From positions 239,971 to 303,970 of IMG/VR virus record IMGVR_UViG_3300045996_002337: 64,000 nucleotides of DNA, one strand, 5' to 3'. The position numbers and the translations under genes were made by a program. Below the pieces are notes generated by a model that searched no databases, was not told the DNA's origin, and saw nothing but the letters and a program-made list of their open reading frames with translations. This DNA comes from a virus. Positions 18,718-49,974 of the stretch are shown here, piece after piece. Positions within the stretch are counted from its first letter, which is position 1. Each line of letters starts with the position of its first letter.

Positions 18718-18723
18718 AAATTT

Positions 18724-30243: not shown

Positions 30244-30255
30244 ATTTCTCCTGTT

Positions 30256-31556: not shown

Positions 31557-31592
31557 GATGAATTATAACCTACGTTGACACTAGCTTGTTGA

Positions 31593-32405: not shown

Positions 32406-32415
32406 TTATTTTCTT

Positions 32416-32715: not shown

Positions 32716-32748
32716 AATGCCATTATAACCTGTTCGGGTGAAAAAGGT

Positions 32749-33111
32749 TCACCAACGAATAACAATTGCGTAGTGCTGATAGAGAGGGCCAGGTTGAAAG
32801 CCATCTACGTCATCAACCGCCAACCCGCGTGGAACATACGCGTTACCGAGCTTTTCAAGGGTAGCGCCGTAGCCGAGTGCCTTCAGCTTCTCAATTAACA
32901 CCTTCATGAATGGTGACACTTCGACGCTATCATATGGCCCAGCATCAATGCTGATCTTGTCATAGGGCATTCCAACTACGTCTGAAAGCACGAGTAACGC
33001 AGCACCGGATTTTGCTGCTGCCTTGATAGGTGCGTCCAGTTTTTCAAGAACGTTCTGTACCGCCGCCTCAGAACGTTCAACAAGGCCACGTGCCTCTTTT
33101 GCGGTGATCAC
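32749..33111 (-). CDS. hypothetical protein
   Basis: 120 aa ORF. Confidence 0.5.
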   Translation of the reverse strand: MITAKEARGLVERSEAAVQNVLEKLDAPIKAAAKSGAALLVLSDVVGMPYDKISIDAGPYDSVEVSPFMKVLIEKLKALGYGATLEKLGNAYVPRGLAVDDVDGFQPGPLYQHYAIVIRW

Positions 33112-35031: not shown

Positions 35032-36729
35032 TTACTTCGTGGAGAAGAGGACGATTTCAACGCGACGGTTCTGTGCATCCGAACCAATAGGCTGGGTGTC
35101 GCCATAACCACGGGTCACGATGCGCTCTGTCGGGAAGTTCGAGCCGGCGTTGGTCATGAGGAACTGCTTCACTGCTTCAGCACGGGCCTTCGACAGAATC
35201 ATGTTCGACGTAGGGTTACCCTTGGAGTCGGTGTGACCATTGATCTGGACCGAGAGACTCGACACCGCGATGTTGTCGAGAAGGTCATTCAGAACGGCGA
35301 TGGAAGCGGGCTTGATCGTGGACTTACCGCTGTCGAACTCAACCGTGTACGACTTGTTGGCAACGACCTCAGCCTTTTGACCACCGTACGTAGGCACCGC
35401 AGCCGGAGCAACCGTGGTCGAGCCTGCCAGCAGCGCTTGAACATACGTCGTGTCGACCACATCTTCGTAGGGAATCAGCTTGTCGAGCATGTCAGGAAAG
35501 TACTTTACCGCGATGTTGCCATAGACGGTGTAGACCTTCTTGTACAGGTTATCGTTGCCATTCAGGCCAAAGAGAAACGCGTTGTCAGCGAGGCCGTTGG
35601 TCGTCGAACCACCCAAGAAGATCGGGTTGCCAGTCTTGTCGTTCTCAACGACACCACGGTGGTACTTCGCCCAGTATGCGGCGTCCTGTTCACCATAGAC
35701 TTTGGCTTGAACTGCACCAGACTTGAGCAGTGCGTCAGAGTTGGAGCGAACTGCTTCACCACCTTCGAACGCTGCAGCCAAGAGGGCCTTCACGACTTCA
35801 GGGTTCTTCTGCATCCACTGCTTGTTGCCAATGATGGTCGTCGGCATTTGCCATGCGTATTCCTTCGTCGAGGCGAGGACTTTGAGGTTACCACGTTCAC
35901 GTGCCAGCTTCACATCGCCTGGGGTCCAGGTTGCAGAACCGTTCACGCAAACCTTTTGACTCTGTTTGGTAGCGGTGTTCGTGCGCGTTTCGCATGCACC
36001 TGCCATGAACTTTTCATCAGCTTCCGTGAAGGAGCCAGTGCCAGCAAAGTTCATGCCATTCGGGTCATACGTCTTCGGGTCAGAGTTCACGACGATGCCG
36101 TTATCCGCGGCGTACTTGATGCAGATGTTGATGTCACCATCACCGAGGTAACCGGCAATCAGCGAGCCCTTTGCGGTCGCGTTCTTGTCGATGATGCACT
36201 TGTCTTCACCACGGCTGTAGCCGAGGGCACCAACAACGGCAACCGACTGATTGAACGGAGCGAGTGCGTCATTTGCACCCTTGACGAAAGCAGGGTAACC
36301 GTCACCCATGATGATCACGAAGTGCGAGCCCTGCGAGTTGTCTTTTGCGAAGGTGGCGAGGTCAGCAATGAGCTTCGCGTAGTCGTCTTCACGCTTGATG
36401 TTGACCTTCAGGCCGCGCTTGGCCATCAGGGAACCAGATGCGGTCGTTGCATCGCCGTTCGCGAAGTGCAGACCGGCGGTGCCGTTCCACGGAATCGTCT
36501 TGATGCGGATCGTGTCGCTCGAAGAAACGGTGGTTGCAGCGATCGTGGTCGTTGCGGCAGGAGTGGCTGCAGCAGCCGTCGGCAGATCGATCTTGTCAGG
36601 CACGGAGGCCTCAATCGTTGCCTTCGGCTTGAAGTAGCCAGCGTTCATTGCGATGTGGGCGCCGTAGCCCAGGATACCGACAGCCGCAGCGATGAGAATC
36701 GCCTTCGGTGCCGCTTTCAGCTTTGCCAT
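35032..36729 (-). CDS. OmpA-family peptidoglycan-binding protein with large periplasmic N-domain
   Basis: C-terminal NGHTDSKGNPTSNMILSKARAEAVKQFL...TRGYGDTQP...NRRVEIVLF is the OmpA/MotB PG-binding motif. N-terminus MAKLKAAPKAILIAAAVGILG resembles that of the SBP gene at 29173-30243. Confidence 0.7.
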   Translation of the reverse strand: MAKLKAAPKAILIAAAVGILGYGAHIAMNAGYFKPKATIEASVPDKIDLPTAAAATPAATTTIAATTVSSSDTIRIKTIPWNGTAGLHFANGDATTASGSLMAKRGLKVNIKREDDYAKLIADLATFAKDNSQGSHFVIIMGDGYPAFVKGANDALAPFNQSVAVVGALGYSRGEDKCIIDKNATAKGSLIAGYLGDGDINICIKYAADNGIVVNSDPKTYDPNGMNFAGTGSFTEADEKFMAGACETRTNTATKQSQKVCVNGSATWTPGDVKLARERGNLKVLASTKEYAWQMPTTIIGNKQWMQKNPEVVKALLAAAFEGGEAVRSNSDALLKSGAVQAKVYGEQDAAYWAKYHRGVVENDKTGNPIFLGGSTTNGLADNAFLFGLNGNDNLYKKVYTVYGNIAVKYFPDMLDKLIPYEDVVDTTYVQALLAGSTTVAPAAVPTYGGQKAEVVANKSYTVEFDSGKSTIKPASIAVLNDLLDNIAVSSLSVQINGHTDSKGNPTSNMILSKARAEAVKQFLMTNAGSNFPTERIVTRGYGDTQPIGSDAQNRRVEIVLFSTK

Positions 36730-38560: not shown

Positions 38561-38779
38561 TCACGCCGATGGCGGAATGTGAACTTTGTTGGTGGCGATA
38601 TTCAGGTTGATGCGTCGTTCATGGACACTGATCGCCCACTGTCGAACCTCCTTCAGCTCCGCTTCCCAGATCGCTTCCTCTGGGCTGCTCTTTGCAGGTT
38701 TGTTGTCATGCAAAAGGCAGAAGAGCTTGTTGATGGCCCGCAGTGCGGCATCAGTTTTCTCCCACGTATCGTAGTTCAC
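38561..38779 (-). CDS. hypothetical protein
   Basis: 72 aa ORF, 4-nt overlap with the RNA ligase gene. Confidence 0.4.
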   Translation of the reverse strand: MNYDTWEKTDAALRAINKLFCLLHDNKPAKSSPEEAIWEAELKEVRQWAISVHERRINLNIATNKVHIPPSA

Positions 38780-40137
38780 TTCTCGCCTTCAAGCCACTTG
38801 TTGCTGATCACTTTGAACTGGTGCGAACCATCCATCGCCTTGAACACGAGACCTTCGCGCACAGCAGCGACCATACTTGGACCATCAGCGAACTTGAGCA
38901 GATCGTCCATGTTGTGAATGCCGAGTTCGGCGAGGGTCACGTTGAAGTGCAGCACAGGCACATGCTCGATCATCTCGCAACCGAAGAGGTTCTTCGCGCA
39001 TTCATTCGCGCTCTTGATCCAAGCAAGGCGTTGGTCAGGAGTCATGAACTCGCCATTCTTGATGTCGAAGATGTTGTACACGAAGAAGCGGTTTTCTGTG
39101 AAGCGTTCTTGGTTGCCCTGGATTCCGGGGCCCATCAGTTCGCCTTGAAGTGCAACGTCGCCACCTTGTTCCGCGATCAGCTCGAGGAGGTCAGGGCTGG
39201 CCATCTTGACAAACGCGTTGTCCTCGTTGCCTTCCAGCTTGAGGTCGAGATTGCGCGAGCACACGCCCTTGATCTCGAGGCCTTCATCGCACTCGGCGTT
39301 CTTCACGTAGGCGGTCATCGAGCTGCCGTCCATCTTCATGGTCACCTCGTAGCGGGTGTCGCGGCTGGCTTCAGCCTTGCGGACCTTGTGCCACTTGCTG
39401 GTCGATTCGTGCCACACGATGTCACCACGGGCGCACATGGCGTCGAGAGCTTCGTCGGGAATGTTCTCGACGCTGAACTCGTAGGTGACATCCTCGTAAC
39501 CGAAGATTTGGTTGCCCATGTTCTGCGCACGTTCTTGATCGCTCTTCTTCAGGAACGAGGGGAAGTTGCCCTTGGCCAGACCAACAAGCTGAGCGCTGGG
39601 CACAGGCGGTTCCCATTTCATGATGCCGAGAAGGCCCGTGAAGTTATACTGACGAATGTCTTCAAAGTCGTAAGTATGACGGCCGGCATCTCGCTCACGG
39701 TGAAACCCGTCGATGAATTCCTCGACTTCGGGGAAAAGGCTCAGCGGTAGCGCGAGACCTTGCGAGAGCTGCTTGCGGAGGCGGATCGTCTTCAGGCGAG
39801 CACCATCGATTCCGTTCCACGTGATCTTGTTCTTCGCGAGGAAGGCGTAACGTTCATCATCGAGCGGTAGGAAACTGTCGACCTCGAAGAACACGCATGA
39901 ATCTCCAACCTGAAATTCTCCAGCCTTGACCACGACCTTCCAGCCTTCAACTGAAGCAACCTTGATCAGGTCTGCACCAGGGATGTCGTCGATCGCATCG
40001 ATGCGCCTGACGGTCACGAGCTTCCGGCCGTCAGCAACCGCGTCTTGGACGAGACGTTGACGGCGAACAGCTTGAAAAGCCGTATGGTCGCCAATGATTT
40101 GGGCATCTGCTTCATTGTATTCATTCATCGTCATCAT
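38776..40137 (-). CDS. ATP-dependent RNA ligase (Rnl5/DraRnl-like: N-terminal domain plus nucleotidyltransferase domain)
   Basis: Motif I VTMKMDGSS (KxDG), motif IV EGLVFKAMDG, motif V FKVISNKW. N-terminal RRIDAIDDIPGADLIKVASVEGWKVVVKAGEFQVGDSCVFFEVDSFLP matches the DraRnl-type N-domain. Confidence 0.7.
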   Translation of the reverse strand: MMTMNEYNEADAQIIGDHTAFQAVRRQRLVQDAVADGRKLVTVRRIDAIDDIPGADLIKVASVEGWKVVVKAGEFQVGDSCVFFEVDSFLPLDDERYAFLAKNKITWNGIDGARLKTIRLRKQLSQGLALPLSLFPEVEEFIDGFHRERDAGRHTYDFEDIRQYNFTGLLGIMKWEPPVPSAQLVGLAKGNFPSFLKKSDQERAQNMGNQIFGYEDVTYEFSVENIPDEALDAMCARGDIVWHESTSKWHKVRKAEASRDTRYEVTMKMDGSSMTAYVKNAECDEGLEIKGVCSRNLDLKLEGNEDNAFVKMASPDLLELIAEQGGDVALQGELMGPGIQGNQERFTENRFFVYNIFDIKNGEFMTPDQRLAWIKSANECAKNLFGCEMIEHVPVLHFNVTLAELGIHNMDDLLKFADGPSMVAAVREGLVFKAMDGSHQFKVISNKWLEGEK

Positions 40138-40196
40138 TTTCTCCTGGTATGTCTATGGTGTATTGTATCATTATCAGCGCAGGATGTACACCTTTT

Positions 40197-40230
40197 TTCG
40201 CGCCGCTATCTAGCAACTAATGCTATAATT
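40197..40230. repeat. 30-bp exact repeat copy B, upstream of the RNA ligase gene
   Basis: Identical to 16655-16690. Confidence 0.7.
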
Positions 40231-40717
40231 GTTGCGCGTCGGGGGTCTTGACTCTGTGCTCTTCTGCTCGCTTCATTGCTGCCAGTCCTTTGACGACGCG
40301 AACCGGGTCGACGAGATGCGGGTGTGCGGCCATGAACTCCTGCTCTTGAGGAGTCATCTCATTCCCGCGGAGGCCATTGCAGTCAGAGCAGCACGGCCGA
40401 AGGTTCTCGACTGCATCCACCCCGCCGAGTGATTTGGGAATGATATGGTCGCGTGTCATCAGAACAGGCACCCCACAACGCCTCGCATAGAGGTTCAGGC
40501 AAGGTTTGCCCATATGGTTCTTGTGACGATCTGCAATCCAACTGGTGGCTTCACAGCCGCAGTTGTAGCACTTGATGGGGTGTCCGCGGAGGGACAAGAA
40601 GAGAGCTGCACCGCTAGCCGCGGATACAGCTTGGCCTCTCACGAGGCGCTCAGCTTTCGGCTTTGAGAGAATATCGAAGCCGTCTTCCAGTGAAACCTCG
40701 TGATAGAAGATCAGCAT
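40223..40717 (-). CDS. HNH endonuclease
   Basis: CYNCGC...HIIPKSLGGVDAVENLRPCCSDCN is an HNH motif with zinc-binding cysteines. Confidence 0.7.
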   Translation of the reverse strand: MLIFYHEVSLEDGFDILSKPKAERLVRGQAVSAASGAALFLSLRGHPIKCYNCGCEATSWIADRHKNHMGKPCLNLYARRCGVPVLMTRDHIIPKSLGGVDAVENLRPCCSDCNGLRGNEMTPQEQEFMAAHPHLVDPVRVVKGLAAMKRAEEHRVKTPDAQQL

Positions 40718-40775
40718 TCAGGTCGGGGGTTCGTTTGCATAGAAGCATTTTAACACCGACCTGTAAGCTTGTACA

Positions 40776-41111
40776 TCAGTCCGTCGCGCGGCGTCCGCCC
40801 TGCACCTTCACTTCTGGCTTGAACTCGCCACGGTCCGTGCGCCGGCGCGGCTTGAAGGGCGCCGTAACTTGCGTGTTCTCTGCTGAGAGCGTCACAACGA
40901 CCTCGACCATCTTTTCATCTGGGCGAAGATTGATGTCAAATTTGTTGGTGAAGAGCTTCGCATTGAGGACGTCATCAACGATGATTGGTCCTTGCTTTTC
41001 TGGATCAAAGCCTCCGAAGAAGCGGCCGTCAGAATCTCTGACGATGGCGTACAGTGAAATGGTATTCATCTTGGTCTCAATTGATGGAAATACCGTGCTG
41101 CATAAGTTCAC
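40776..41111 (-). CDS. hypothetical protein
   Basis: 111 aa ORF. Confidence 0.45.
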   Translation of the reverse strand: MNLCSTVFPSIETKMNTISLYAIVRDSDGRFFGGFDPEKQGPIIVDDVLNAKLFTNKFDINLRPDEKMVEVVVTLSAENTQVTAPFKPRRRTDRGEFKPEVKVQGGRRATD

Positions 41112-41490
41112 GGCTTAGTTTAAGGAAAAGAAGGATATTAAAGCAACGTGCGTATGCTTCTGAAAACATGAATGGCGTTTCAATCCTAATGCCATTCATG
41201 ATAAAGGAGGCAACCCAGCCAATTTGTTTATTGGACTGGCTAGGCGCCCTCAATTCAAGTGCCAACTTGATCTTCGCCTCAATTTGAGAGAGCGCGTTGA
41301 GGTCAGTCAAGTAGTTAACATTCGGCAGTACCCACAGCGAAATGTTCGAAATAAAATAATCGTTGAGATGGTTGTTCCGAGCAAACTTCTCCCAGTTCGT
41401 TGAAATTTCATCCAACGAAGTTGCAGCAAGTTGTTCAAGTGTTGGCTTGACCTTCTTGTGATGATCTGCAAAGGAGATGATGTCAGCCAT
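41077..41490 (-). CDS. hypothetical protein
   Basis: 137 aa ORF. Confidence 0.45.
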   Translation of the reverse strand: MADIISFADHHKKVKPTLEQLAATSLDEISTNWEKFARNNHLNDYFISNISLWVLPNVNYLTDLNALSQIEAKIKLALELRAPSQSNKQIGWVASFIMNGIRIETPFMFSEAYARCFNILLFLKLSRELMQHGISIN

Positions 41491-41659
41491 TCAGCGTGTC
41501 CTTAATCGACACCAATGGAAGCCATTCAACCCACTGATTCAGTCGCGTGCTGAAGATGAAGGCTTTACGGTGCTGGAACCAAATGACCAGCGTGTCATCT
41601 TCCAATTGCTTTGGCAAAACGGGCTGAAGTGGACATGAGTGGACATAGACCTTCTGCAT

Positions 41660-42475
41660 TTAGACCTCCACGAATTTTGGGCCATACTGATTAAACTCAG
41701 ATGCATGTTCATTGTTGTACCCACTAGGGTTGCACACGACACGTGTGCCCCACATCTCAGTGTCAATCGAATCATGAGTATGGCCGTGAATCCATAGATC
41801 GATTTTTCCACCTGCAAGGAGGGCGTCACAGTTCGACGCAAAACCGCCGTTGATTTCATTACCAAAACGGGGGTGACACAGCCGATATGATGGCATGTGA
41901 TGCGAGATGACCACTGTCCTACCTTCAAATGGCTTCTCAAGGTGCTCCACGATCTTCGCCTTCTGCTTGCGGTGAATCTCGGCCATGTCAGGCACGGTGA
42001 ACCGGCGAGGCGGATCGTTCAAATGTGATTGATCGATCTTGATGACGTAGAAGTCACGAAGAGATGAACCGACCATCCCGCGTTCCGCAATCGATTGACC
42101 GCCATCAGCCCACAGCGTGCTGAAGATGAATCGCGCGTTCTCAAGCTCGAGGTAGCCAACGTCGCAGGTCGCGAACTCAGTCTTCTCGCTTACGCCCAAC
42201 TCGAGGCTGAATTTCGTGGACCACTCCGTCATGTTGTGGCCGTAAAATTCGTGGTTGCCGGGAATGTAGATGACCTTCAGAAACCGTTTCTCAATCTCGC
42301 GGAGAAAGGCAATGAGTTGATCGAACTTGGAGCTGATATCACCCGCCAAAACCAAAACGCTCTCAGCATCGCGCTCGTCGGGGGCAACGAATGTTTTCAC
42401 CAGGAATTCAGCAGTTTGCCCGGTCCATTGCTCAAGATGCAGGTCGCTCGCGACACGAATGTATTTTGGTTTCAT
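41660..42475 (-). CDS. calcineurin-like metallophosphoesterase
   Basis: MPP motifs DLH, GDIS, GNHE, GHTH. Confidence 0.7.
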   Translation of the reverse strand: MKPKYIRVASDLHLEQWTGQTAEFLVKTFVAPDERDAESVLVLAGDISSKFDQLIAFLREIEKRFLKVIYIPGNHEFYGHNMTEWSTKFSLELGVSEKTEFATCDVGYLELENARFIFSTLWADGGQSIAERGMVGSSLRDFYVIKIDQSHLNDPPRRFTVPDMAEIHRKQKAKIVEHLEKPFEGRTVVISHHMPSYRLCHPRFGNEINGGFASNCDALLAGGKIDLWIHGHTHDSIDTEMWGTRVVCNPSGYNNEHASEFNQYGPKFVEV

Positions 42476-42495
42476 CTTACTATTATAGCCTTAAA

Positions 42496-42690
42496 TTAGG
42501 CTAAGTTGGCAACTTTTTTCAGAACTTCCTGATGGAGCATAAACCAGCCATCAACCTTTTGCTTAAGGTCACGCACGGCCCCGGGAGCTTCAATGTGGGC
42601 AATGACTTCTACTACCGCTTCACGAGCAGCATTTTCCCTTTTAATCGCATCACGCCGTTCAGCGTATGCAGAAAAGTCATATAGCCTCAC
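42496..42690 (-). CDS. hypothetical small protein
   Basis: 64 aa ORF. Confidence 0.4.
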   Translation of the reverse strand: MRLYDFSAYAERRDAIKRENAAREAVVEVIAHIEAPGAVRDLKQKVDGWFMLHQEVLKKVANLA

Positions 42691-42701
42691 AAGAAAACTC
42701 C

Positions 42702-42938
42702 TTAAACTTCCGTGTTTCCTGGAGTATTTATGTCGGCAGGCTGCGGTTCAGGGACAACTGTCGTCAATTGCCCGTCGATTACCAGGTCTTCACCATTAAG
42801 CATGCGCTGAACGCGTGCCATGATCGTCTGGTGACCTTGCTGCTTGATCTGGGGCGGCTCGTCCTTAAACAGATCTAGCGCTTGCTTAACGCGGTAGGCT
42901 GCCTGCTTGGCAATTTGGTCGTAGTCTTTTGCGCTCAT
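42702..42938 (-). CDS. hypothetical small protein
   Basis: 78 aa ORF. Confidence 0.4.
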   Translation of the reverse strand: MSAKDYDQIAKQAAYRVKQALDLFKDEPPQIKQQGHQTIMARVQRMLNGEDLVIDGQLTTVVPEPQPADINTPGNTEV

Positions 42939-43210
42939 GTCTGTTTAAAGATTTTTACGGTTACGAGTTCGGTGTACGGTCTGTAGTCTGAATAAAGGCG
43001 TTCGCACTTCATTGGGATGTCAAGAAGCGCTCGGAACCCAGTGTCCTCAATTTCGAGGTAGTAGTTGGTAAACAGCTTCCCGATCTTTTTAGCATTTAGC
43101 TTTTTGGAGAGCCGATTTGCATGGTTCCAGCTCATCAGATATTCATGAACGAGTACACTCATTTTAGCCACCCCGCAACCACAAGAACGGTTATGAAGAT
43201 CCACGCGCAC
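42935..43210 (-). CDS. hypothetical protein
   Basis: 91 aa ORF, 4-nt overlap. Confidence 0.45.
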   Translation of the reverse strand: MRVDLHNRSCGCGVAKMSVLVHEYLMSWNHANRLSKKLNAKKIGKLFTNYYLEIEDTGFRALLDIPMKCERLYSDYRPYTELVTVKIFKQT

Positions 43211-43331
43211 AGCGTGGCGAATTGATTAATTTTCCATTTCCAAAAACCACCAGGGGTTTTCAGGATTTTCAAAACATCAAGAAAATACCACCCGATTGCG
43301 AAGCAAAGGATGTAGTGGAGAGCCAACAGCA

Positions 43332-43520
43332 TCAGAACAACCTCGCCACCCCGTAGGCCAAAAAGAAGGCGGCGATGATGAAGATGAAATAGAGCCAGCC
43401 TGGAAAAGGCACCCCACGCGGAAAGTCAGGCGGCGCATCACCCTCCAAGAAATTACGAGTAAGCCGATTGATGCCGTACATACCGCCAATGAAGATCACG
43501 AGAAAAATAAAAAGCGCCAT
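43332..43520 (-). CDS. small membrane protein
   Basis: 62 aa, hydrophobic. Confidence 0.35.
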   Translation of the reverse strand: MALFIFLVIFIGGMYGINRLTRNFLEGDAPPDFPRGVPFPGWLYFIFIIAAFFLAYGVARLF

Positions 43521-43521
43521 G

Positions 43522-43710
43522 TTAAGCTCTCACTGCGATAAAAATGTTGTAAATGGTGACGATCAGCGTGGTAACCGCAACGGCTTCAAGAAACTCCATC
43601 GTGGCCCTGGCACCAATGTGCATGTTGTCAATTGCTGGATTTCTATTGCCCTGGAAAAAGATAATCAGCCATGACGCAAAGAAGATACCGATGATGACTA
43701 ATGCAGACAT
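43522..43710 (-). CDS. small membrane protein
   Basis: 62 aa, hydrophobic. Confidence 0.35.
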   Translation of the reverse strand: MSALVIIGIFFASWLIIFFQGNRNPAIDNMHIGARATMEFLEAVAVTTLIVTIYNIFIAVRA

Positions 43711-45011
43711 CAGATTTCCACCAACTTATCAGTGCGGCTGTGATTGTAGGTGCAGAAGCGAAGGGAAGCGAACTCCTTGCCTTTGCTCTTCGACACTTCC
43801 TGGTAGGTGATCACGTGAGTACCAGCCAGCCACTTTTCGGGGTTGTTCTTCATGTCCTCACGCATTGCATCGGTGAAACCTGAGCCGACGTTGAAGCGAA
43901 CTTCAGTGCCGTTCTCGAGGAAGGCGATGCAGTTGACGCCGCCGACAGTGTTCTCAAGGCGCGACTTGGGACGACCTGGGTAGAAGCCAACGATTCGGGC
44001 GTCGACGTCGTAGAAGCGCTTGACCTTCACCCACGTGTAGGAGCGGCCCCATTCGTAAACAGCGTCCTCATTCTTGAGAATCAGGCCTTCACGTTCTGCC
44101 TTCTGCTTTGTCTCGTCGTCGATGCGCTCGTTGCAGTACGCGACCATGTCAGCGTAGTTCTGAACCTTGCGACCTTCGGTCAGCTTGATCTTCGTGAGAC
44201 CTTCGAGGAGGGCGGTGAGTGTCTCGCGCGTCTTGCCGTTGGTGATCGTCGTCTTCTGTGCAACCCAGTCGGTGAGCGGCATGATGAAGAAGGCGCGGAA
44301 CATCAGGGACTTCTTGGCGTCCACGTTCTTGCTGCCCTTGGCGTTCATCGTCTGCTCGAACGTCGTGCCGAGGGTTTCACCGTCCAACACGAAGTCTTGC
44401 CCGTAACGCTTGCGAATTTCGAGCAGCTCCTCGTCGAAGATGCCGTTGAGGTGGTCCGAAGGCTTGCCGCCACGCGCACGGTACTCTACGACGCCGTCCT
44501 TGACGAACGCGAATTGGCGGGTGCCGTCGTACTTGATATCCGCTTGGCAGGGGAACGTGACGTACTTTTCGAACTCGTCTTCGTCCTCGCACTTTTCGGC
44601 GAGCTGTTGATCCCAGCTGGGGATCGGATCGTTGGGCCATACCTTGTTGAAGGTGTCAGCCGAGAAGCCTGCTTTGGGGTCCTGATCGATCACACGCTCG
44701 AGATAGTCGGCGGTGTCCTTCGTAAAGTAGCTCAGAATGTTGGTGACAGCGGAGCGGGCTGCATTGCCGCTCAGATCACGCGTAGCGAGCGCATCCAGAA
44801 CGCTGAACACCGGCCCGAGAATGCCGTCCGTTTCGGCGTACTTTGCGGGACGATCGAACTTCTTGACGCCGAACGTGGTGTACGGGTCCATCGCGTAACG
44901 CATGAGCTTGCGGCCGTCGGCGTCCAGCGTGGCGAGCGCGGCTTGAATGGTCTTCTTCGAACCGGCGCCATTCGCGCTTTCGCAGGCTTTCAGGACTTCA
45001 ACGAATTTCAT
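43710..45011 (-). CDS. ATP-dependent DNA ligase
   Basis: Motif I ADIKYDGTR, motif IV EREGLILKNED, motif V YTWVKVKRF. Confidence 0.8.
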   Translation of the reverse strand: MKFVEVLKACESANGAGSKKTIQAALATLDADGRKLMRYAMDPYTTFGVKKFDRPAKYAETDGILGPVFSVLDALATRDLSGNAARSAVTNILSYFTKDTADYLERVIDQDPKAGFSADTFNKVWPNDPIPSWDQQLAEKCEDEDEFEKYVTFPCQADIKYDGTRQFAFVKDGVVEYRARGGKPSDHLNGIFDEELLEIRKRYGQDFVLDGETLGTTFEQTMNAKGSKNVDAKKSLMFRAFFIMPLTDWVAQKTTITNGKTRETLTALLEGLTKIKLTEGRKVQNYADMVAYCNERIDDETKQKAEREGLILKNEDAVYEWGRSYTWVKVKRFYDVDARIVGFYPGRPKSRLENTVGGVNCIAFLENGTEVRFNVGSGFTDAMREDMKNNPEKWLAGTHVITYQEVSKSKGKEFASLRFCTYNHSRTDKLVEI

Positions 45012-45124
45012 TAAGCTCTCCAGGATTTGATAGGTTGATTATAACACAGCTGCACCGCCATGTTACTTTCGTTCATCATTTAGCTCAGATGTAGGAGCGT
45101 CGCATCGCTCCTACATCTCGCGTG

Positions 45125-45514
45125 TTAGGCGATCGGGTTCTTCATGTAGCGGGCCAGGGATTCGGCCGGGTACAGCATGACCTTGCCGTTGATCAGCACG
45201 CCGGCCTTGCTGTTCTTGAGACCAACGAACTTGCACTTCACGAGACCCTTGGAGGTCGGCAGAACAACTTCCTTGTTCAACATCGATTCGTCGAGGCCGT
45301 AGCGGAAACCCTTCAGACGCAGATCACGAAGGTAGATCGGGTCGATTTCATTGGGATTGGCCGTCTTGTCGCCGAAGTTCACGGTGACCTTGAAATCCGT
45401 CGAGCCATAAAGGATCTTCGAAGCGCCAGCAACGAGACCGTTTTCTTCAGCGAATTCCTTCAGAGCGGCGTCAAGCTTGGCGTGGAGAGCGGCGATTTGT
45501 TGCTTGGTGTACAT
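45125..45514 (-). CDS. hypothetical protein
   Basis: 129 aa ORF, directly downstream of the promoter at 45550-45577. Confidence 0.5.
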   Translation of the reverse strand: MYTKQQIAALHAKLDAALKEFAEENGLVAGASKILYGSTDFKVTVNFGDKTANPNEIDPIYLRDLRLKGFRYGLDESMLNKEVVLPTSKGLVKCKFVGLKNSKAGVLINGKVMLYPAESLARYMKNPIA

Positions 45515-45549
45515 TTGAATTCCTTTGCAAGATTGGTTGGTATGATGCT

Positions 45550-45577
45550 ATTATACTCAACCTGCGCTAGATGTACA
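45550..45577 (-). promoter_or_regulatory. promoter of the TGTACA-N16-TATAAT family; about 45-bp block near-identical to 60722-60770
   Basis: Plus ggttggtatgatgctattatactcaacctgcgctagatgtacac. Confidence 0.5.
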
Positions 45578-45593
45578 CAACTAGATGTAGCTG

Positions 45594-45899
45594 TTACAAC
45601 TTAGGCATCTTAAGCTTGCGCTTCGGAAGGTTGCCGCCCTTCAACACCACGTAGATCGTGAGGCACGGAAGGAAGTTGATGCACCAGCGCCGTTCATCCT
45701 TCGAGTAGTGTGCGCCAATCCAGATACCACCGGCTTGGAACAGCGTGCCGATCGTAAGACGATCAACCTTGAGACTTGATATCATGGGCGAGATGCCGTG
45801 CGCCTTCTGGGCACCATGAACGAGAGCTTCCTGCGAGACGTCCCCAAGACGAGGACCTCCTTCAATCACCTTGAGGTTCGTCATCATTCGACCTTGCAA
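45594..45899 (-). CDS. hypothetical protein
   Basis: 101 aa ORF. Confidence 0.4.
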   Translation of the reverse strand: MQGRMMTNLKVIEGGPRLGDVSQEALVHGAQKAHGISPMISSLKVDRLTIGTLFQAGGIWIGAHYSKDERRWCINFLPCLTIYVVLKGGNLPKRKLKMPKL

Positions 45900-46159
45900 C
45901 CGATAGGATGGCCTTCAGCATCAAGATCGATCACGTAGCCGGCACCGTTCGAACGCCCAACGATCTCGACTAACACCTTGCCGTCCATGCAGTGACGGCG
46001 GAAGTTAAGCACATCGCGGTTGGCTGTCTTGCCTTCCACGCCCACGCGCCGGCTTTCCGTAGACACAGAGAATACGATGAGCGCGATGAACGCTACGGCG
46101 AACGCGATGAACCCTATGACGTTGAGAGCTTGCTTGAGGAATTTCATTGTTTGTTCCAA
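45884..46159 (-). CDS. small membrane protein
   Basis: 91 aa with TM helix. Confidence 0.4.
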   Translation of the reverse strand: MEQTMKFLKQALNVIGFIAFAVAFIALIVFSVSTESRRVGVEGKTANRDVLNFRRHCMDGKVLVEIVGRSNGAGYVIDLDAEGHPIGCKVE

Positions 46160-46497
46160 GAACGCAGGAAGTTGGCGCCGACATCAAGGCTGACATAGTT
46201 GAAGCCCTGCATCCCCTGTTCGGAGTAGGCTACGTCAGAGGCATCGTACCCCGCCCGGGTTAGATAGTCGCGAAGCTCGTCCATGAAGCCCTTGTCGGTG
46301 TAGATGAGACCGTGCTGATCCACATCCCACGAGTCCATGGCGAAGTAGACGCGAAGCTCGCCGAACGAGGGTTCCGTTTCGCCGTCTTCCAGTTCTGCGA
46401 CATACGCAACTACAAGACCGGTGCAGGCGACTGCACGTTGTTCGTCCGTCCAGTAACCGACGCCGTTCGTGCTGAGAGATTCGTTCATTGAGCGCAT
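46144..46497 (-). CDS. hypothetical acidic protein
   Basis: 117 aa ORF. Confidence 0.5.
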   Translation of the reverse strand: MRSMNESLSTNGVGYWTDEQRAVACTGLVVAYVAELEDGETEPSFGELRVYFAMDSWDVDQHGLIYTDKGFMDELRDYLTRAGYDASDVAYSEQGMQGFNYVSLDVGANFLRSWNKQ

Positions 46498-46672
46498 TGT
46501 GCGTCCTGCTTTGTCTTCTCGCGGGCAAGCGTTGCTTCAACCTCCTTCTCAACAGCAAACTTATGACCGGCAACGATATGCGAGGTCACACTGTTCACTG
46601 TGATGCCCAGGATAAAAACCGCAAGAACGTAAGCTGTGCTGTTCGGCATGAAGTCTCCAAGAGTTTATAGAT

Positions 46673-46700
46673 GAATTATATCCAACCTGCGCCCAATGTA
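46673..46700 (-). promoter_or_regulatory. promoter of the TGTACA-N16-TATAAT family
   Basis: Plus gaattatatccaacctgcgcccaatgtacac. Confidence 0.45.
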
Positions 46701-46747
46701 CACAACCTGACGGTAAATATGTGTAACGTTCTTCTTAAGGATTTCTA

Positions 46748-47209
46748 GTGGCAAAAAAACGCATCCCAAGCTTGGTGGTTGAACGAGCTGAAGACCAGGG
46801 CAATTACTTCTATTTGAGCGTGCTCGAATATCGGCGCGAGAATTATCTCGTCATCATCGATAACATTACAGAAGATGGCATCGGGGCCTACGTACTTGAT
46901 TACGCGCAGCAAGAAGGTCTTGATCTTCGCCAACTTATGAGCGTCGTGACCGAGTGGTTCTATCGCGGCTCATATCGTTACCCGCTCTCATTTGAGTTTT
47001 CACGTCGTGGCATGGCGCACATGACGAACAGGATTCACAAGAATTTTGAACTTGCGCACGTCACCCGATTGATCGGAAACGACTTTAGGTTTGACCTCAC
47101 AGCCCCACCTAAAGTTCGTCGTCGTCGCGTTTCAATGATCCCGGCTGGAGTTGAGATCAAGCTCAGAAAATCAAGCGAGCGCGTAGAGGTTCTGAAGTTT
47201 CCGAAGTAG
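46748..47209 (+). CDS. hypothetical protein on the minority (plus) strand, GTG start
   Basis: 153 aa ORF with TAAGGA RBS 6 nt upstream of GTG. Convergent 39-nt overlap with the 3' end of the nucleotidyltransferase gene. Confidence 0.4.
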   Translation: MAKKRIPSLVVERAEDQGNYFYLSVLEYRRENYLVIIDNITEDGIGAYVLDYAQQEGLDLRQLMSVVTEWFYRGSYRYPLSFEFSRRGMAHMTNRIHKNFELAHVTRLIGNDFRFDLTAPPKVRRRRVSMIPAGVEIKLRKSSERVEVLKFPK

Positions 47210-48193
47210 CCATTCTTCAGCGGCCGCCTCCAGTTCGGGGGTCCGCTTTTGCAGGGTGGTCTCCTTGAGCTTGCGCTGGACAGTGTCGTCCAGTTCACGT
47301 AGGTGGGCTTCGATCACCGGCATGTCAACAAGGCCCTTCTTCACAGAAAGAAGGTACTCGGCATTGCTGCGCGGGAATGTGATCGCTCCAGTGTCCAATA
47401 GCTCGATGGCCTGCTCATAAACGCGGATGGCGTGGGACATCGACTTGTAATCCACCGCTTTTTCAGCAGCTCCAGTCGTGCGTTCGCCATACCCTGCGAT
47501 AAGCTTCTTCACAGCGGTGTTCAGCGTCTGCAGAGAAGAGGTCTCCAAGTAGCTACGTCCATTCAACTCAAGCGTACGAAGCACCCGGTTGTTGTTCGGC
47601 GTTTCAGAGGTGAGCAGCTCGGCTTCGCGTGCGATCACATCGATCACCTTTTCACCATCGATCAAGTCATCGAGCCGATACTCAGCTTTCTTTTCCTGCA
47701 AGGAAAGCTTAAGCTCTACAGCAGAGATAGCAGCGAGGACCTTGCGAGCTGCATTCAGACGCTCACCGCGTCGAACGTAGTCAAACGTCTGCTTCATCGC
47801 AAACCCGACCATCGAATAGACTTCGGCGTTCGTGAACTTTGCGATCAGTTCCTGAAGAAGCTCTTGCATCTCAGGAGGGGTGCTGGTATTCTTCACCCCG
47901 CCGAAGGCGATTTCAAGTGCGTAAGTTTGCCCTGCCACGAAGTCGCGAACGAACGTTTGAAGTGGGAAGTACTCCGTCTCGACACCATTATCAGGCATCG
48001 ATTTATCGACTGCAACAGGTTCACCGTCAGCGTCAACCCGCGTCTTGAAGATGCGAGGAGCTTTGCCTAGCAGCAAACTGTCGAGTGAGGGGAGGTACAC
48101 GACCTTGTTGTCGGTATCAGAAGTAGGCGTTGAGGTACCGTACAGCTTCGAGCCATATGTCACCTCAAAAAGATTCGTGGTTTGATCTGTCAA
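47171..48193 (-). CDS. predicted nucleotidyltransferase (Pol-beta superfamily)
   Basis: N-terminal YGSKLYGTSTPTSDTDNKVVY fits the hG[GS]x9-13[DE]h[DE] NTase signature. Confidence 0.55.
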   Translation of the reverse strand: MTDQTTNLFEVTYGSKLYGTSTPTSDTDNKVVYLPSLDSLLLGKAPRIFKTRVDADGEPVAVDKSMPDNGVETEYFPLQTFVRDFVAGQTYALEIAFGGVKNTSTPPEMQELLQELIAKFTNAEVYSMVGFAMKQTFDYVRRGERLNAARKVLAAISAVELKLSLQEKKAEYRLDDLIDGEKVIDVIAREAELLTSETPNNNRVLRTLELNGRSYLETSSLQTLNTAVKKLIAGYGERTTGAAEKAVDYKSMSHAIRVYEQAIELLDTGAITFPRSNAEYLLSVKKGLVDMPVIEAHLRELDDTVQRKLKETTLQKRTPELEAAAEEWLLRKLQNLYALA

Positions 48194-49401: not shown

Positions 49402-49974
49402 TTACACTCTACCTTGCTCGATCAAGTGTAACTGAAGCCAGACGACGTACGAGTAGGCCAAGGCGTGTGACTTCTTGAAGGAGTAACCGGACTCATCCTT
49501 CGCGTACAGAATCCTTCGTGCAGCTTCGCGGTCCTTCTTGTAGAGGCCGATGAAGTTCTTCTTGCCAGGTCGAATGAGGGCCATGATGTCAGCAACCTCC
49601 ATGATCGACGTTGGCTTCAGATCGCAGAGAAGATCGCCATGCTTGGCCAGCTGAAAAATCTTGTCATGGTTAGACGGAACGAGCAGCAGCTTCCAATCGG
49701 GTTCTTTCTTCAGCAGCTCGTCAATCTCGGCTCTGCTTGTAAAGTGCTTGTACACAGTGAGGTGGAGAAAGTCAACCTTCAGGTAGCCCAGGTCCTCTGC
49801 CTCTTCATATGGGATTGCCGCTAGGCCGGTCACCGGGTCCTTTGCAATTTTTTGTGGATACACTCCACATGGATGTGGAGTCAGCTTGCCGTCTTTCAGC
49901 AAACTGGCCCGCACCCACGTTTTAAAGAGGGTGGTTGGCTTGAAATCGGGGGTGATGTCAATATCGACGTCCAA
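49402..49974 (-). CDS. DnaE-like (Pol III alpha family) polymerase fragment: catalytic DxD and downstream palm/finger motifs
   Basis: MDVDIDITPDF parallels DnaE MPDFDVDF. LGYLKVDFL parallels GLVKFDFLGL. SGYSFKKSHALAYSYVVWLQ parallels GYGFNKSHSAAYALVSYQ. Confidence 0.55.
   Translation of the reverse strand: MDVDIDITPDFKPTTLFKTWVRASLLKDGKLTPHPCGVYPQKIAKDPVTGLAAIPYEEAEDLGYLKVDFLHLTVYKHFTSRAEIDELLKKEPDWKLLLVPSNHDKIFQLAKHGDLLCDLKPTSIMEVADIMALIRPGKKNFIGLYKKDREAARRILYAKDESGYSFKKSHALAYSYVVWLQLHLIEQGRV

What the first reader, a model, noticed from the sequence alone, without database searches (positions are those of the whole stretch)
38776..48193. Clustered RNA-end-processing genes: Rnl5-like RNA ligase, HNH nuclease, metallophosphoesterase, nucleotidyltransferase
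Within 10 kb the phage encodes an ATP-dependent RNA ligase with an N-terminal DraRnl-type domain (38776-40137), an HNH endonuclease (40223-40717), a calcineurin-like phosphoesterase (41660-42475) and a Pol-beta-type nucleotidyltransferase (47171-48193). The ATP-dependent DNA ligase (43710-45011) sits among them. A kinase/phosphatase plus ligase set is the classic phage answer to host anticodon nucleases. Together with the many tRNAs and the insert-bearing tRNAs this suggests a dedicated tRNA repair or processing module. No P-loop polynucleotide kinase was seen, so end healing would rely on the phosphoesterase or host enzymes.
Basis: inference. Interest (0 to 1): 0.65.

Follow-up and report, generated by a model that had tools for sequence, protein, structure and literature searches.

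The report
Phage RNA-break repair gene set
A roughly 350-kb uncultured phage carries a nick-sealing RNA ligase, a phosphodiesterase and an RNA 3'-end nucleotide-adding enzyme close together; this is a recognisable but kinase-less version of the RNA-repair toolkits already described in large phages, not a new kind of system.

Summary
All five ORFs are at the stated coordinates on the minus strand and belong to the families named. 38776-40137 is an Rnl5/DraRnl-type RNA ligase. 40223-40717 is an HNH nuclease. 41660-42475 is a metallophosphoesterase (MPE). 43710-45011 is an ATP-dependent DNA ligase. 47171-48193 is an RlaP nucleotidyltransferase, a T4 NrdC.11 homologue. The RNA-repair reading is partly supported. 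In 49 groups of viral contigs carrying Rnl5 ligases, this MPE family is the commonest neighbour (13 groups). In other phages it lies directly next to Rnl5, Rnl1 or Rnl2-like ligases, and outside this clade it nearly always comes with a P-loop kinase. RlaP is published as an RNA 3'-OH NMP-adding enzyme linked to RNA ligases. The set is not one operon: it has several promoters. The RlaP...DNA ligase...MPE...HNH...Rnl5 order is clade-wide synteny inside a replication region. HNH and the DNA ligase are not shown to take part. No polynucleotide kinase lies in the 64 kb. Rnl5 enzymes seal duplex nicks, not anticodon-loop breaks. Phage toolkits of RNA ligase, RlaP, calcineurin-like phosphatase and tRNAs are already described, so this is a new member of a known kind. 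Interest is modest.

The parts
38776..40137 (-). [quoted passage not shown] It has an N-terminal OB domain and a C-terminal adenylyltransferase domain, with the motif I lysine at K268. Clade-specific features are a ~37-aa N-terminal extension and a ~40-aa linker insert.
   Evidence: Pfam; PHROG; NgrRnl 5COT at E 1e-64; TIGR02306 above cut-off; alignment A1; motif positions.
40162..40190 (-). Promoter-like site (TGTACA-N17-TACAAT) directly upstream of the RNA ligase, followed by an AGGAG ribosome-binding site.
   Evidence: The motif family has 15 copies, all on the minus strand, against 0.12 expected.
40223..40717 (-). Free-standing HNH endonuclease. It holds this position in 8 of 9 related contigs. 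It is probably a domesticated or long-resident homing-type nuclease, and membership of the repair set is not shown.
   Evidence: Pfam and PHROG; synteny and identities that track the flanking genes.
40747..40775 (-). Promoter-like site of the same family, directly upstream of HNH.
40776..41111 (-). Small ORF (97-111 aa) with no family match. It is poorly conserved (one related locus).
41077..41490 (-). 137-aa protein of a clade-restricted family. It is co-inverted with the MPE in two contigs. The predicted fold has a C-terminal alpha-beta-beta-beta-alpha unit that weakly resembles dsRBD, HPF and HicB. It is a candidate RNA-binding accessory (inference).
41483..41659 (-). 58-aa ORF bridging the MPE and the 137-aa ORF. 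Its start abuts the MPE stop, and its stop overlaps the start of the next gene.
41660..42475 (-). Binuclear metallophosphoesterase of the phosphodiesterase class, with PptH, Rv0805, GpdQ and Dbr1 as nearest structures. It is the proposed 3'-end healing enzyme (2',3'-cyclic phosphate or 3'-phosphate to 3'-OH).
   Evidence: AF2 model pLDDT 95; Foldseek; neighbourhood statistics.
43710..45011 (-). T4-type ATP-dependent DNA ligase (K160). It is probably co-transcribed with the MPE from a promoter-like site at 45038-45066. It is the commonest neighbour of this MPE family across phages.
47171..48193 (-). RlaP-family Pol-beta nucleotidyltransferase of the T4 NrdC.11 type. Its predicted activity is addition of 1-2 NMP to RNA 3'-OH ends.
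   Evidence: biochemistry of the family in PMC12776372.

Best explanation
The region holds three loosely linked components of a phage RNA-break repair toolkit, embedded in the nucleic-acid-metabolism region of a ~350-kb phage.

Proposed pathway (inferred, not shown):
1. A host or competitor ribonuclease breaks tRNA or another structured RNA.
2. The metallophosphoesterase (41660-42475) removes a 2',3'-cyclic or 3'-phosphate to give a 3'-OH.
3. The RlaP nucleotidyltransferase (47171-48193) can add back one or two nucleotides where the nuclease has also trimmed the end.
4. The Rnl5 ligase (38776-40137) seals 3'-OH/5'-phosphate nicks held in a duplex, for example in tRNA stems.

Breaks made by metal-dependent nucleases already carry 5'-phosphate and 3'-OH, so they need only the ligase. 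Breaks with a 5'-OH would need a kinase encoded elsewhere in the genome or supplied by the host.

The DNA ligase is primarily a replication enzyme that shares a transcription unit with the phosphoesterase. The HNH gene is a long-resident nuclease with no demonstrated role in the pathway.

Shown here: family membership, intact catalytic motifs, gene order, and conservation and recurrence of the linkages. Inferred: substrates, order of steps and biological target.
For: - Rnl5 membership meets curated thresholds and catalytic motifs are conserved.
- RlaP membership is met, with the GS/DxD/E motif invariant and homology to NrdC.11. Members of the family add 1-2 NMP to RNA 3'-OH, reject 3'-phosphate ends and prefer the 5' half of a cleaved-tRNA mimic (PMC12776372). 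An upstream 3'-phosphoesterase therefore makes mechanistic sense.
- In 81 Rnl5-centred viral loci (49 groups at 80% ligase identity), the window-type MPE is the most widespread neighbour: 12 groups by BLAST clustering, 13 by the iterated HMM. Next come Rnl1 (10), AAA_33 kinase (7), DUF2828/vWA (7) and RlaP (5).
- The MPE start overlaps the Rnl5 stop by 4 bp in L056 and L084. It lies 3 bp from an Rnl1 gene in L109. It is one small ORF from an Rnl2-like ligase in Caulobacter phage Cr30, which also has Rnl1 and a kinase nearby.
- Outside the window's clade, 5 of 6 MPE-plus-Rnl5 groups also carry the kinase. This is the pattern expected of a split kinase/phosphoesterase healing pair.
- In phiCbK-like phages the MPE sits inside the tRNA gene array, next to peptide deformylase.
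- The MPE model (pLDDT 95) is closest to phosphodiesterase-class enzymes: PptH, Rv0805, Dbr1 and GpdQ.
- A metallophosphoesterase that heals RNA 2',3'-cyclic ends has a precedent in bacterial Pnkp (PMC3675462).
- In nine related contigs at 40-75% protein identity, all carry the MPE, the 137-aa ORF and Rnl5 together; HNH is in 8 of 9 and RlaP is seen in 7. The MPE and 137-aa ORF invert as one unit in two of them yet stay next to the ligase.
- Toprim tRNases leave directly ligatable 5'-P/3'-OH ends, and single nicks in the anticodon stem are resealed by RNA ligases (PMC12445682). This gives a kinase-less set something to work on.
- The published jumbo-phage survey describes this toolkit: RNA ligases, RlaP, tRNAs and occasionally calcineurin-like phosphatases (PMC7824862).
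Against: - There is no biochemical or expression data for any of these proteins.
- No polynucleotide kinase, Rnl1, RtcB or TROVE-like gene is in the 64 kb.
- Rnl5 physiology is uncharted. The only in vivo phenotype is radiation sensitivity in Deinococcus, which points to DNA repair (PMC5397189).
- Seen from the MPE side (80 loci, 51 groups), the commonest neighbour is the ATP-dependent DNA ligase (12 groups). Rnl5 was found in only 3 loci, and 53 loci had no repair partner.
- RlaP lies within 10 kb of Rnl5 only in this clade, and 7-10 kb away. The clade shares whole-region synteny, so linkage there could be historical.
- The genes are driven by several separate promoter-like sites.
- The MPE is not of the lambda-phosphatase/CthPnkp type by fold ranking.
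Confidence: 0.5

Rival explanations
1. This is a replication and DNA-repair set rather than an RNA-repair set. The Rnl5 ligase seals nicks whose 3' side is ribonucleotides, such as unremoved primers or ribo-patches. The DNA ligase seals Okazaki fragments. The MPE cleans 3'-phosphate or other blocked DNA ends for both ligases. The genes sit together because they are part of the replication module.
For: - The region lies between Pol III alpha fragments, a clamp loader and the DNA ligase.
- The ATP-dependent DNA ligase is the most widespread neighbour of this MPE family (12 of 51 groups, often 0.3-0.9 kb upstream) and is probably co-transcribed with it here.
- DraRnl accepts DNA in the 5'-phosphate and template strands, and its loss sensitises Deinococcus to ionising radiation (PMC5397189).
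Against: - Across phages, Rnl5 genes keep company with Rnl1, AAA_33 kinase, DUF2828/vWA plus tRNA-like RNAs, and RlaP. These are RNA-repair-type partners, not replication genes.
- The MPE is also directly adjacent to Rnl1 and Rnl2-like ligases, and sits inside tRNA arrays.
- RlaP acted only on RNA among cellular macromolecules (PMC12776372 abstract).
Confidence: 0.22
2. There is no functional unit. The five genes are independent accessory genes that happen to lie in a conserved early or middle gene block. The MPE hydrolyses small molecules, such as cyclic-nucleotide immune signals or nucleotides, and the HNH is a homing endonuclease.
For: - Separate promoter-like sites and many intervening small ORFs.
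- 53 of 79 MPE-centred loci show no ligase, kinase or RlaP within 10 kb.
- The structural neighbours include the cyclic-nucleotide phosphodiesterase Rv0805 and the small-molecule hydrolase PptH.
- The jumbo-phage survey predicts anti-signalling roles for other calcineurin-like phosphodiesterases, the T5 A1 orthologues (PMC7824862).
- An HNH with the same core is inserted between Rnl1 and the kinase in L056 but is absent from its relative L036, which is typical of mobile endonucleases.
Against: - The MPE overlaps start to stop with, or directly abuts, three different RNA ligase families in unrelated phages. It co-occurs with the kinase in 5 of 6 non-clade groups.
- The family is rare in GenBank phages (191 of 50,697 records), yet it is the top neighbour of Rnl5.
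Confidence: 0.18
3. The set matures the phage's own RNAs rather than repairing damage. It would excise and rejoin the inserts in the two insert-bearing tRNA-like genes of the window (2255-2362 and 6662-6779), as a tRNA-splicing-like pathway.
For: - One insert-bearing tRNA is confirmed by Rfam, with a 32-34-nt insert in the anticodon loop at 55 bits. A second is called by ARAGORN in intron mode.
- 'Enigmatic' tRNA introns are reported in huge phages (bioRxiv 10.1101/356790).
Against: - No splicing endonuclease was found, and the inserts do not form a bulge-helix-bulge motif (own inspection).
- The tRNA genes are 30 kb or more from the ligase.
- Similar insert-bearing tRNA-like genes near Rnl5 in other phages are partners of DUF2828/vWA proteins, in a Ro60/Y-RNA-like arrangement. 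This suggests tRNA mimics rather than spliced tRNAs.
Confidence: 0.07

Closest known systems
Phage T4 tRNA repair (Pnkp plus Rnl1, with Rnl2 and NrdC.11 also encoded)
   Same: Both are phage-encoded heal-and-seal logic against host RNA nucleases. Both use an ATP-dependent RNA ligase that needs 3'-OH and 5'-phosphate ends. Both carry an NrdC.11/RlaP homologue and phage tRNAs.
   Different: No Pnkp (neither the P-loop kinase nor the HAD phosphatase) is in the window. The ligase is Rnl5 (N-terminal OB domain, nick-sealing) rather than Rnl1, the anticodon-loop specialist. 3' healing would be done by a metallophosphoesterase instead of a DxDxT phosphatase.
Bacterial Pnkp/Hen1 system (Clostridium thermocellum Pnkp: kinase, metallophosphoesterase and ligase)
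   Same: Both use a binuclear metallophosphoesterase as the 2',3'-cyclic phosphate/3'-phosphate healing enzyme next to an ATP-dependent RNA ligase (PMC3675462).
   Different: Here the activities are separate proteins, and there is no kinase and no Hen1. By fold ranking the MPE is nearer to PptH, Rv0805, GpdQ and Dbr1 than to the lambda-phosphatase-like Pnkp module, which did not appear among the Foldseek matches.
Rnl5 family: Deinococcus DraRnl (DR_B0094) and Naegleria NgrRnl
   Same: They share the domain order (OB domain then adenylyltransferase), the motifs and the lack of a C-terminal domain. The window protein matches 5COT at E 1e-64 and passes the TIGR02306 cut-off.
   Different: The window protein has a ~37-aa N-terminal extension and a ~40-aa insert between the domains, both shared by its clade. 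Its operon partner differs: DraRnl is followed by a DEDDh-like gene (PMC5397189).
RlaP nucleotidyltransferases in RtcB/RtcA and RNA-ligase operons (Pseudomonas PfRlaP and PaRlaP)
   Same: Both are PF10127 members with the catalytic carboxylate motif, and both are linked in the genome to RNA repair genes.
   Different: The window protein is of the T4 NrdC.11 subtype, a separate cluster in the published similarity network. It lies 7 kb from the ligase and is not in an RtcB operon. Its third acidic residue aligns as Glu.
Jumbo-phage RNA repair toolkits (Iyer et al. 2021; Burroughs and Aravind 2016)
   Same: The inventory is the same: ATP-dependent RNA ligases, RlaP, many tRNAs, occasional calcineurin-like phosphatases, NAD+ salvage genes and NADAR (PMC7824862; window genes).
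   Different: That survey names Rnl1 and Rnl2 as the main phage ligase families and HAD enzymes as the usual phosphatases. Here the set is Rnl5 plus an MPE, with no kinase in the window.

Membership tests
Rnl5 (DraRnl/NgrRnl) nick-sealing RNA ligases | An N-terminal OB-like domain comes before the adenylyltransferase domain, and there is no C-terminal domain after motif V. | tested here: met
   PF21189 covers residues 40-132 and PF09414 covers 263-444. The protein ends 9 residues after FKVISN. The NgrRnl alignment covers both domains.
Rnl5 (DraRnl/NgrRnl) nick-sealing RNA ligases | Covalent nucleotidyltransferase motifs I (KxDG), III, IIIa, IV and V are present. | tested here: met
   K268-MDG, QGELMG, FFVYNIFD, REGLVFK and FKVISN all align to the NgrRnl motifs and are invariant in A1.
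Rnl5 (DraRnl/NgrRnl) nick-sealing RNA ligases | The curated family model threshold is reached. | tested here: met
   TIGR02306 RNA_lig_DRB0094 scores 153.1 bits against a cut-off of 151.15. The margin is narrow because of the clade-specific insert.
Rnl5 (DraRnl/NgrRnl) nick-sealing RNA ligases | The enzyme seals 3'-OH/5'-PO4 nicks in duplexes only when the 3'-OH strand ends in ribonucleotides, and it depends on Mn2+. | not testable with these tools
   This needs an enzyme assay. The property is taken from PMC5397189.
RlaP (PF10127) RNA-ligase-associated Pol-beta nucleotidyltransferases | A Pfam PF10127 match above the gathering score, with the Pol-beta GS...DxD plus third-carboxylate motif. 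| tested here: met
   28.1 bits against 23. G14, S15, D26, D28 and E74 are invariant, including in KVP40 NrdC.11. phrog_388 matches at 4e-52.
RlaP (PF10127) RNA-ligase-associated Pol-beta nucleotidyltransferases | The gene lies in the neighbourhood of an RNA ligase. | tested here: inconclusive
   It is 7 kb from Rnl5 here and 6-10 kb away in seven related contigs. It is not found near Rnl5 outside the clade. It recurs near the MPE and DNA ligase in 7 of 51 MPE groups.
RlaP (PF10127) RNA-ligase-associated Pol-beta nucleotidyltransferases | The enzyme adds 1-2 NMP to RNA 3'-OH. | not testable with these tools
   This activity is shown only for the Pseudomonas enzymes (PMC12776372).
Calcineurin-like binuclear metallophosphoesterases | The metal-ligand motifs DxH, GD, GNH(E/D), H and GHxH are present. 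| tested here: met
   D11, H13, D46, N74, H75, H192/H193, H232 and H234 are invariant in 19 and in 40 homologues. The AF2 model has pLDDT 95 with an MPE fold.
Pnkp-type / lambda-phosphatase-type RNA 2',3'-phosphatase module | Close sequence or fold similarity to the CthPnkp phosphatase or the lambda phosphatase clade. | tested here: not met
   Neither appears in the sequence hits to the PDB. Neither appears among the Foldseek matches listed, which are led by PptH, Rv0805, Dbr1 and GpdQ. The MPE may work like one, but it is not a member.
T4-type heal-and-seal tRNA repair system | A 5'-OH polynucleotide kinase is encoded with the ligase. | tested here: not met
   There is no credible Walker A protein other than an ABC ATPase and a clamp loader in 64 kb. 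HMMs of the ligase-linked AAA_33 kinase find nothing. The remaining ~285 kb of the genome could not be read.
T4-type heal-and-seal tRNA repair system | A ligase specialised for anticodon-loop breaks (Rnl1, PF09511). | tested here: not met
   No Rnl1 homologue is in the window. The ligase present is Rnl5.
Free-standing HNH homing endonucleases | An HNH (beta-beta-alpha-metal) motif in a small stand-alone ORF. | tested here: met
   PF14279 and PF01844, with CxxC...DH...N...CxxC.
Free-standing HNH homing endonucleases | A sporadic, mobile distribution among close relatives. | tested here: not met
   The gene holds the same position in 8 of 9 related contigs. Its identities (43-53%) track the flanking genes, and it has its own phage-type promoter. 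This suggests a long-resident gene. A distant HNH in L056 does look like an insertion.
ATP-dependent DNA ligase (T4 gp30-like) | An adenylation domain with KxDG plus an OB domain, and a match to the phage DNA ligase family. | tested here: met
   PF01068 and PF14743, K160-YDG, and phrog_114 at 9e-78.

The most novel reading that the evidence does not exclude
In this clade of ~350-kb phages the kinase has been dropped. A PptH/Rv0805-like phosphodiesterase, its translationally coupled 137-aa partner with a dsRBD-like fold, the Rnl5 ligase and RlaP would form a self-sufficient, kinase-independent pathway. It would act on duplex-held RNA breaks that already carry a 5'-phosphate, for example nicks that Toprim- or PIN-type defence nucleases make in tRNA stems. 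Alternatively it would process the phage's own insert-bearing tRNA-like RNAs. Either way this would give the first physiological role for a viral Rnl5 ligase and define a new RNA-end-healing phosphodiesterase family.
Probability: 0.12. Interest if true: 0.7.

Novelty: new member of a known kind. Interest (0 to 1): 0.35.

Why it matters
The physiological role of Rnl5 ligases is still open (PMC5397189), and the phrog_1649-type phosphoesterase has never been characterised. The comparative result here gives a concrete hypothesis to test at the bench. This phosphoesterase family is the commonest neighbour of viral Rnl5 genes. It directly abuts three different RNA ligase families. Outside this clade it is usually accompanied by a kinase. 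The hypothesis is that it is the 3'-end healing partner of phage RNA ligases. The finding also flags a clade in which the kinase is missing locally and RlaP is present. That clade would be a good system for asking which kinds of RNA damage large phages repair. For annotation, these genes can be labelled more precisely than 'RNA ligase', 'metallophosphoesterase' and 'nucleotidyltransferase'. None of this changes the general picture of phage RNA repair that is already published.

Tried and rejected
- Megablast of the region against GenBank phages found no match. The best annotated ligase relatives, S-CREM1 and Microcoleus phage, have uninformative neighbourhoods.
- A PDB sequence search with RlaP found nothing usable.
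The model was redone with database homologues.
- The look-up of encoding contigs could not locate the exact MPE protein, so the rest of the 349,660-bp contig stayed out of reach.
- Burroughs and Aravind 2016 could not be fetched. I cite it only through papers that describe it.
- I tried to find relatives of the window's insert-bearing tRNA with an exact exon pattern, and with the YkuD-domain protein (4349-5296) as an anchor. Both failed.
- I rejected T4 endonuclease VII as the identity of the HNH. It gave only a weak PHROG hit (6e-6) and no Pfam Endonuclease_7 match.
- I rejected the 215-aa and 340-aa ORFs downstream of the ligase as repair components. They are coiled-coil and transmembrane proteins followed by an OmpA-domain protein.
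- I rejected a bulge-helix-bulge reading of the tRNA inserts after inspecting the folds.
- I first read the clustered 'intron tRNAs' near Rnl5 in L057, L064 and L069 as support for a splicing role. I withdrew that reading once their motif proved to be tied to DUF2828/vWA genes.

Full report
**Setting**

The window is part of a large uncultured phage. It has no megablast match in GenBank phages. Almost all genes are on the minus strand. It carries 28 tRNA genes and a permuted tmRNA. An identical copy of one of its proteins sits on a 349,660-bp JGI metagenome contig. The same window also encodes NAD+ salvage enzymes, a NADAR protein, Pol III alpha fragments and a clamp loader.

All five ORFs are at the stated coordinates.

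- 38776-40137 has the PHA02142 OB domain followed by an RNA-ligase adenylyltransferase domain. It matches Naegleria NgrRnl at 1e-64 across both domains. It clears the curated cut-off of the DraRnl model TIGR02306. It keeps the motif I lysine (K268) and motifs III to V. It is therefore a true Rnl5 ligase. It has a clade-specific N-terminal extension and a ~40-aa inter-domain insert.
- 47171-48193 is an RlaP (PF10127) nucleotidyltransferase of the T4/KVP40 NrdC.11 type, with an invariant GS...DxD...E motif.
- 41660-42475 is a metallophosphoesterase (MPE) with every metal ligand intact.
- 40223-40717 is an HNH nuclease.
- 43710-45011 is a T4-like ATP-dependent DNA ligase.
- No P-loop polynucleotide kinase, Rnl1, RtcB-like or TROVE-like gene is detectable in the 64 kb.

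**Local architecture**

A phage promoter-like motif, TGTACA-N15-18-TAnnAT, occurs 15 times against 0.12 expected, always on the minus strand. One copy sits directly upstream of the Rnl5 gene, which also has an AGGAG ribosome-binding site. Another sits directly upstream of HNH.

The MPE has no such site of its own. It probably rides on the transcript that starts at a promoter-like site before the DNA ligase. The MPE, a 58-aa ORF and a 137-aa ORF are joined start to stop. RlaP follows two unknown ORFs downstream of another promoter-like site. No convincing minus-strand terminator separates the units.

The set is therefore co-directional and probably shares a temporal class. This is inference. 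It is several transcription units, not one operon.

**Is the clustering meaningful?**

Nine IMG/VR contigs share the order RlaP ... DNA ligase ... MPE, 137-aa ORF, HNH, Rnl5 ... coiled-coil proteins, OmpA-domain protein, at 40-75% protein identity. Some lack HNH or run out of sequence before RlaP. The Pol III alpha fragment, and in one of them (L004) the clamp loader, lie upstream. Proximity within the clade is therefore inherited synteny and cannot by itself show function. One hint does come from the clade: in two contigs the MPE and the 137-aa ORF are inverted as a unit yet remain next to the ligase.

The stronger test is outside the clade. I collected 81 Rnl5-centred viral loci (49 groups at 80% ligase identity) and clustered all neighbouring ORFs.

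| Neighbour of Rnl5 within 10 kb | Groups out of 49 |
|---|---|
| Window-type MPE | 13 |
| Rnl1-type ligase | 10 |
| AAA_33 P-loop kinase | 7 |
| DUF2828/DUF7788/vWA protein | 7 |
| RlaP (window's clade only) | 5 |
| Small MPE | 4 |

- In L056 and L084 the MPE start overlaps the Rnl5 stop by 4 bp.
- In L109 the MPE is 3 bp from an Rnl1 gene.
- In Caulobacter phage Cr30 the MPE is one small ORF from an Rnl2-like ligase, with Rnl1 and a kinase nearby.
- In phiCbK-like phages the MPE lies inside the tRNA array beside peptide deformylase.
- Outside the window's clade, five of the six groups with both Rnl5 and the MPE also have the kinase. This is what a split kinase-plus-phosphoesterase healing pair would look like.

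The reciprocal view is less tidy. Among 80 MPE-centred loci (51 groups), the commonest neighbours are the ATP-dependent DNA ligase (12 groups), an unannotated 220-aa family (9 groups), RlaP (7 groups) and PhoH (6). Rnl1 with the kinase appears in a handful of loci, Rnl5 in three, and 53 loci have none of these. The MPE family is therefore broader than RNA repair. Its consistent theme is company with polynucleotide ligases and RlaP.

**What the MPE looks like**

A confident model (pLDDT 95) is closest to M. tuberculosis PptH (TM 0.72), then to the cyclic-nucleotide phosphodiesterase Rv0805, the RNA lariat debranching enzyme Dbr1 and GpdQ. Profile searches agree. This places it in the phosphodiesterase class. 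It is not lambda-phosphatase/CthPnkp-like and not Mre11-like. A role as a 2',3'-cyclic phosphodiesterase or 3'-phosphatase on RNA ends is an inference from context. It has a precedent in the metallophosphoesterase module of bacterial Pnkp (PMC3675462).

**Mechanism**

RlaP enzymes add one or two NMP to RNA 3'-OH ends, reject 3'-phosphate ends and prefer the 5' half of a cleaved-tRNA mimic (PMC12776372). Rnl5 ligases seal 3'-OH/5'-phosphate nicks in duplexes whose 3'-OH strand is RNA (PMC5397189).

The most economical pathway is that the MPE frees the 3'-OH, RlaP restores trimmed nucleotides and Rnl5 seals. Lesions with a 5'-OH (PrrC, RloC, colicins) would need a kinase that the window lacks. 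Lesions from metal-dependent nucleases such as Toprim OLD carry 5'-phosphate and 3'-OH, and single stem nicks are resealed by RNA ligases alone (PMC12445682).

I put this RNA-repair reading at about 0.5. The main rival, at about 0.2, is a replication and DNA-repair role for Rnl5, the MPE and the DNA ligase. It is supported by the replication-module setting, the link between the MPE and the DNA ligase, and the Deinococcus radiation phenotype.

HNH is conserved in place in 8 of 9 relatives, with divergence tracking its neighbours, and it has its own promoter. It is a long-resident gene, but nothing ties it to RNA. HNH fusions to Rnl2-family ligases are noted in the literature (PMC7824862), so a link cannot be excluded.

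**Insert-bearing tRNAs**

- One is solid: 2255-2362 scores 55 bits against Rfam tRNA with a 32-34-nt insert in the anticodon loop. It can be read as Asn(GUU) or Val(GAC).
- A second, 6662-6779, is called only by ARAGORN in intron mode.

Huge-phage tRNA 'introns' have been reported as enigmatic (bioRxiv 10.1101/356790).

I found similar genes clustered near Rnl5 in L057, L064 and L069. Their inserts share a hairpin followed by a CAGCAAT motif. A collection-wide scan found 62 loci with the motif. In 33 of them it lies inside a gene that ARAGORN's intron mode calls a tRNA. In 26 of 32 such loci there is a DUF2828/vWA gene. Across all 38 motif copies in loci that have that gene, the copy usually lies within about 2 kb downstream on the same strand. 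This is the layout of Ro60 with its tRNA-mimicking Y RNA (PMC4201824). These are therefore more likely protein-bound tRNA mimics than spliced tRNAs.

The window's two inserts lack that motif, and the window lacks a DUF2828 gene. Their nature stays open, and they add little to the repair argument.

**Comparison and verdict**

Phage toolkits of RNA ligase, RlaP, tRNAs and occasional calcineurin-like phosphatases are already described (PMC7824862). RlaP biochemistry has been reported (PMC12776372).

What is particular here is the combination of an Rnl5 ligase, a PptH/Rv0805-like phosphodiesterase and an NrdC.11-type RlaP, with no kinase in the window, conserved across a clade of very large uncultured phages. 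I file it as a new member of a known kind with modest interest (0.35).

The most novel reading that the evidence leaves open is a kinase-independent pathway for duplex-held breaks or for the phage's own tRNA-like RNAs. I give it about a 0.12 chance.

Noticed in passing
L064:17682-18428, L057:19573-20897, L069:20226-20923, L133:4895-5007, and loci L171-L232: These are tRNA-like genes of 110-125 nt whose anticodon arm is expanded by 25-50 nt. The expansion carries a short hairpin (about TTATCTTG-N3-5-AAGATAC) followed by CAGCAAT. The motif occurs in 62 viral loci. In 33 of them it lies inside an ARAGORN 'intron tRNA' of many isotypes. 26 of 32 such loci carry a DUF2828/DUF7788/vWA-family ORF. 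Across all 38 motif copies in loci with that ORF, it is usually 150-2200 bp upstream on the same strand. This looks like a Ro60/Y-RNA-style pair of a protein and a tRNA mimic.
   Followed up: partly
window 2255-2362 and 6662-6779 (minus strand); doubtful third at 8552-8760: Two tRNA-like genes in the tRNA array carry inserts of 32 and 40 nt in the anticodon arm. Each insert forms a 9-bp hairpin preceded by CGAA(A/C). The first is confirmed by Rfam (55 bits) and can be read as Asn(GUU) or Val(GAC). There is no CAGCAAT motif, no bulge-helix-bulge and no DUF2828 gene in the window. It is unknown whether the inserts are removed.
   Followed up: partly
window 18641-18716 and 18723-18799 (minus strand); whole window: There are two adjacent tRNAs with anticodon CUA (amber-reading). 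Only 2 of 82 long minus-strand ORFs end in TAG, against 44 in TGA and 36 in TAA. This may reflect TAG avoidance or stage-specific TAG read-through.
   Followed up: no
window 19306-19749 (minus strand): This is a phage-encoded tmRNA of the permuted (two-piece) type, with tag peptide ANEANYRMAA. It scores 129 bits against Rfam tmRNA_permuted and 111 bits against beta_tmRNA.
   Followed up: no
window 49402-49974 and 55310-55951, with 51884-52825 between (minus strand): Pieces of DNA polymerase III alpha lie on separate small ORFs several kb apart. The NTPase/palm piece scores above the Pfam cut-off and the finger domain is weak. A clamp-loader AAA+ gene and unknown ORFs lie between them. This may be a split or highly diverged DnaE. 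49402-49974 is conserved in relatives.
   Followed up: no
window, minus strand: 10826, 11042, 11232, 18242, 28954, 36804, 40162, 40747, 45550, 46675, 56195, 59224, 60740, 61942, 62259 (start coordinates): This is a family of 15 promoter-like sites, TGTACA-N15-18-TAnnAT, often with an inner GCAGGTTG. All are on the coding strand, against 0.12 expected by chance. Two copies, at 10826 and 11042, are identical over 29 nt.
   Followed up: partly
window 21163-22563, 22649-23911, 26589-27698, 1789-2241 (minus strand): The NAD+ and nucleotide genes are a NAMPT-like phosphoribosyltransferase, a divergent adenylosuccinate-synthetase-like protein, an NMNAT-Nudix fusion and a NADAR-domain protein. The synthetase-like protein is far below both the PurA and PurZ cut-offs. 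The NADAR protein sits inside the tRNA array, next to the insert-bearing tRNA.
   Followed up: no
window 29173-33896 and 31593-32405 (minus strand): The phage encodes ABC transporter parts: an NMT1-like substrate-binding protein, an ATPase and a permease. It also encodes an SPFH/Band-7 protein. A YkuD L,D-transpeptidase lies at 4349-5296 and an OmpA-domain protein at 35032-36729. These are unusual envelope and transport cargo for a phage.
   Followed up: no
L008 (Caulobacter phage Cr30, NC_025422.1 9.0-15.5 kb): This is a compact RNA-repair island in a cultured T4-like phage. It holds the MPE (gp033), a small ORF, an Rnl2-like ligase (gp031), then further on Rnl1 (gp022) and an AAA_33 kinase (gp021, annotated only as 'ATPase'). 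It is a tractable system for testing the MPE's role.
   Followed up: partly
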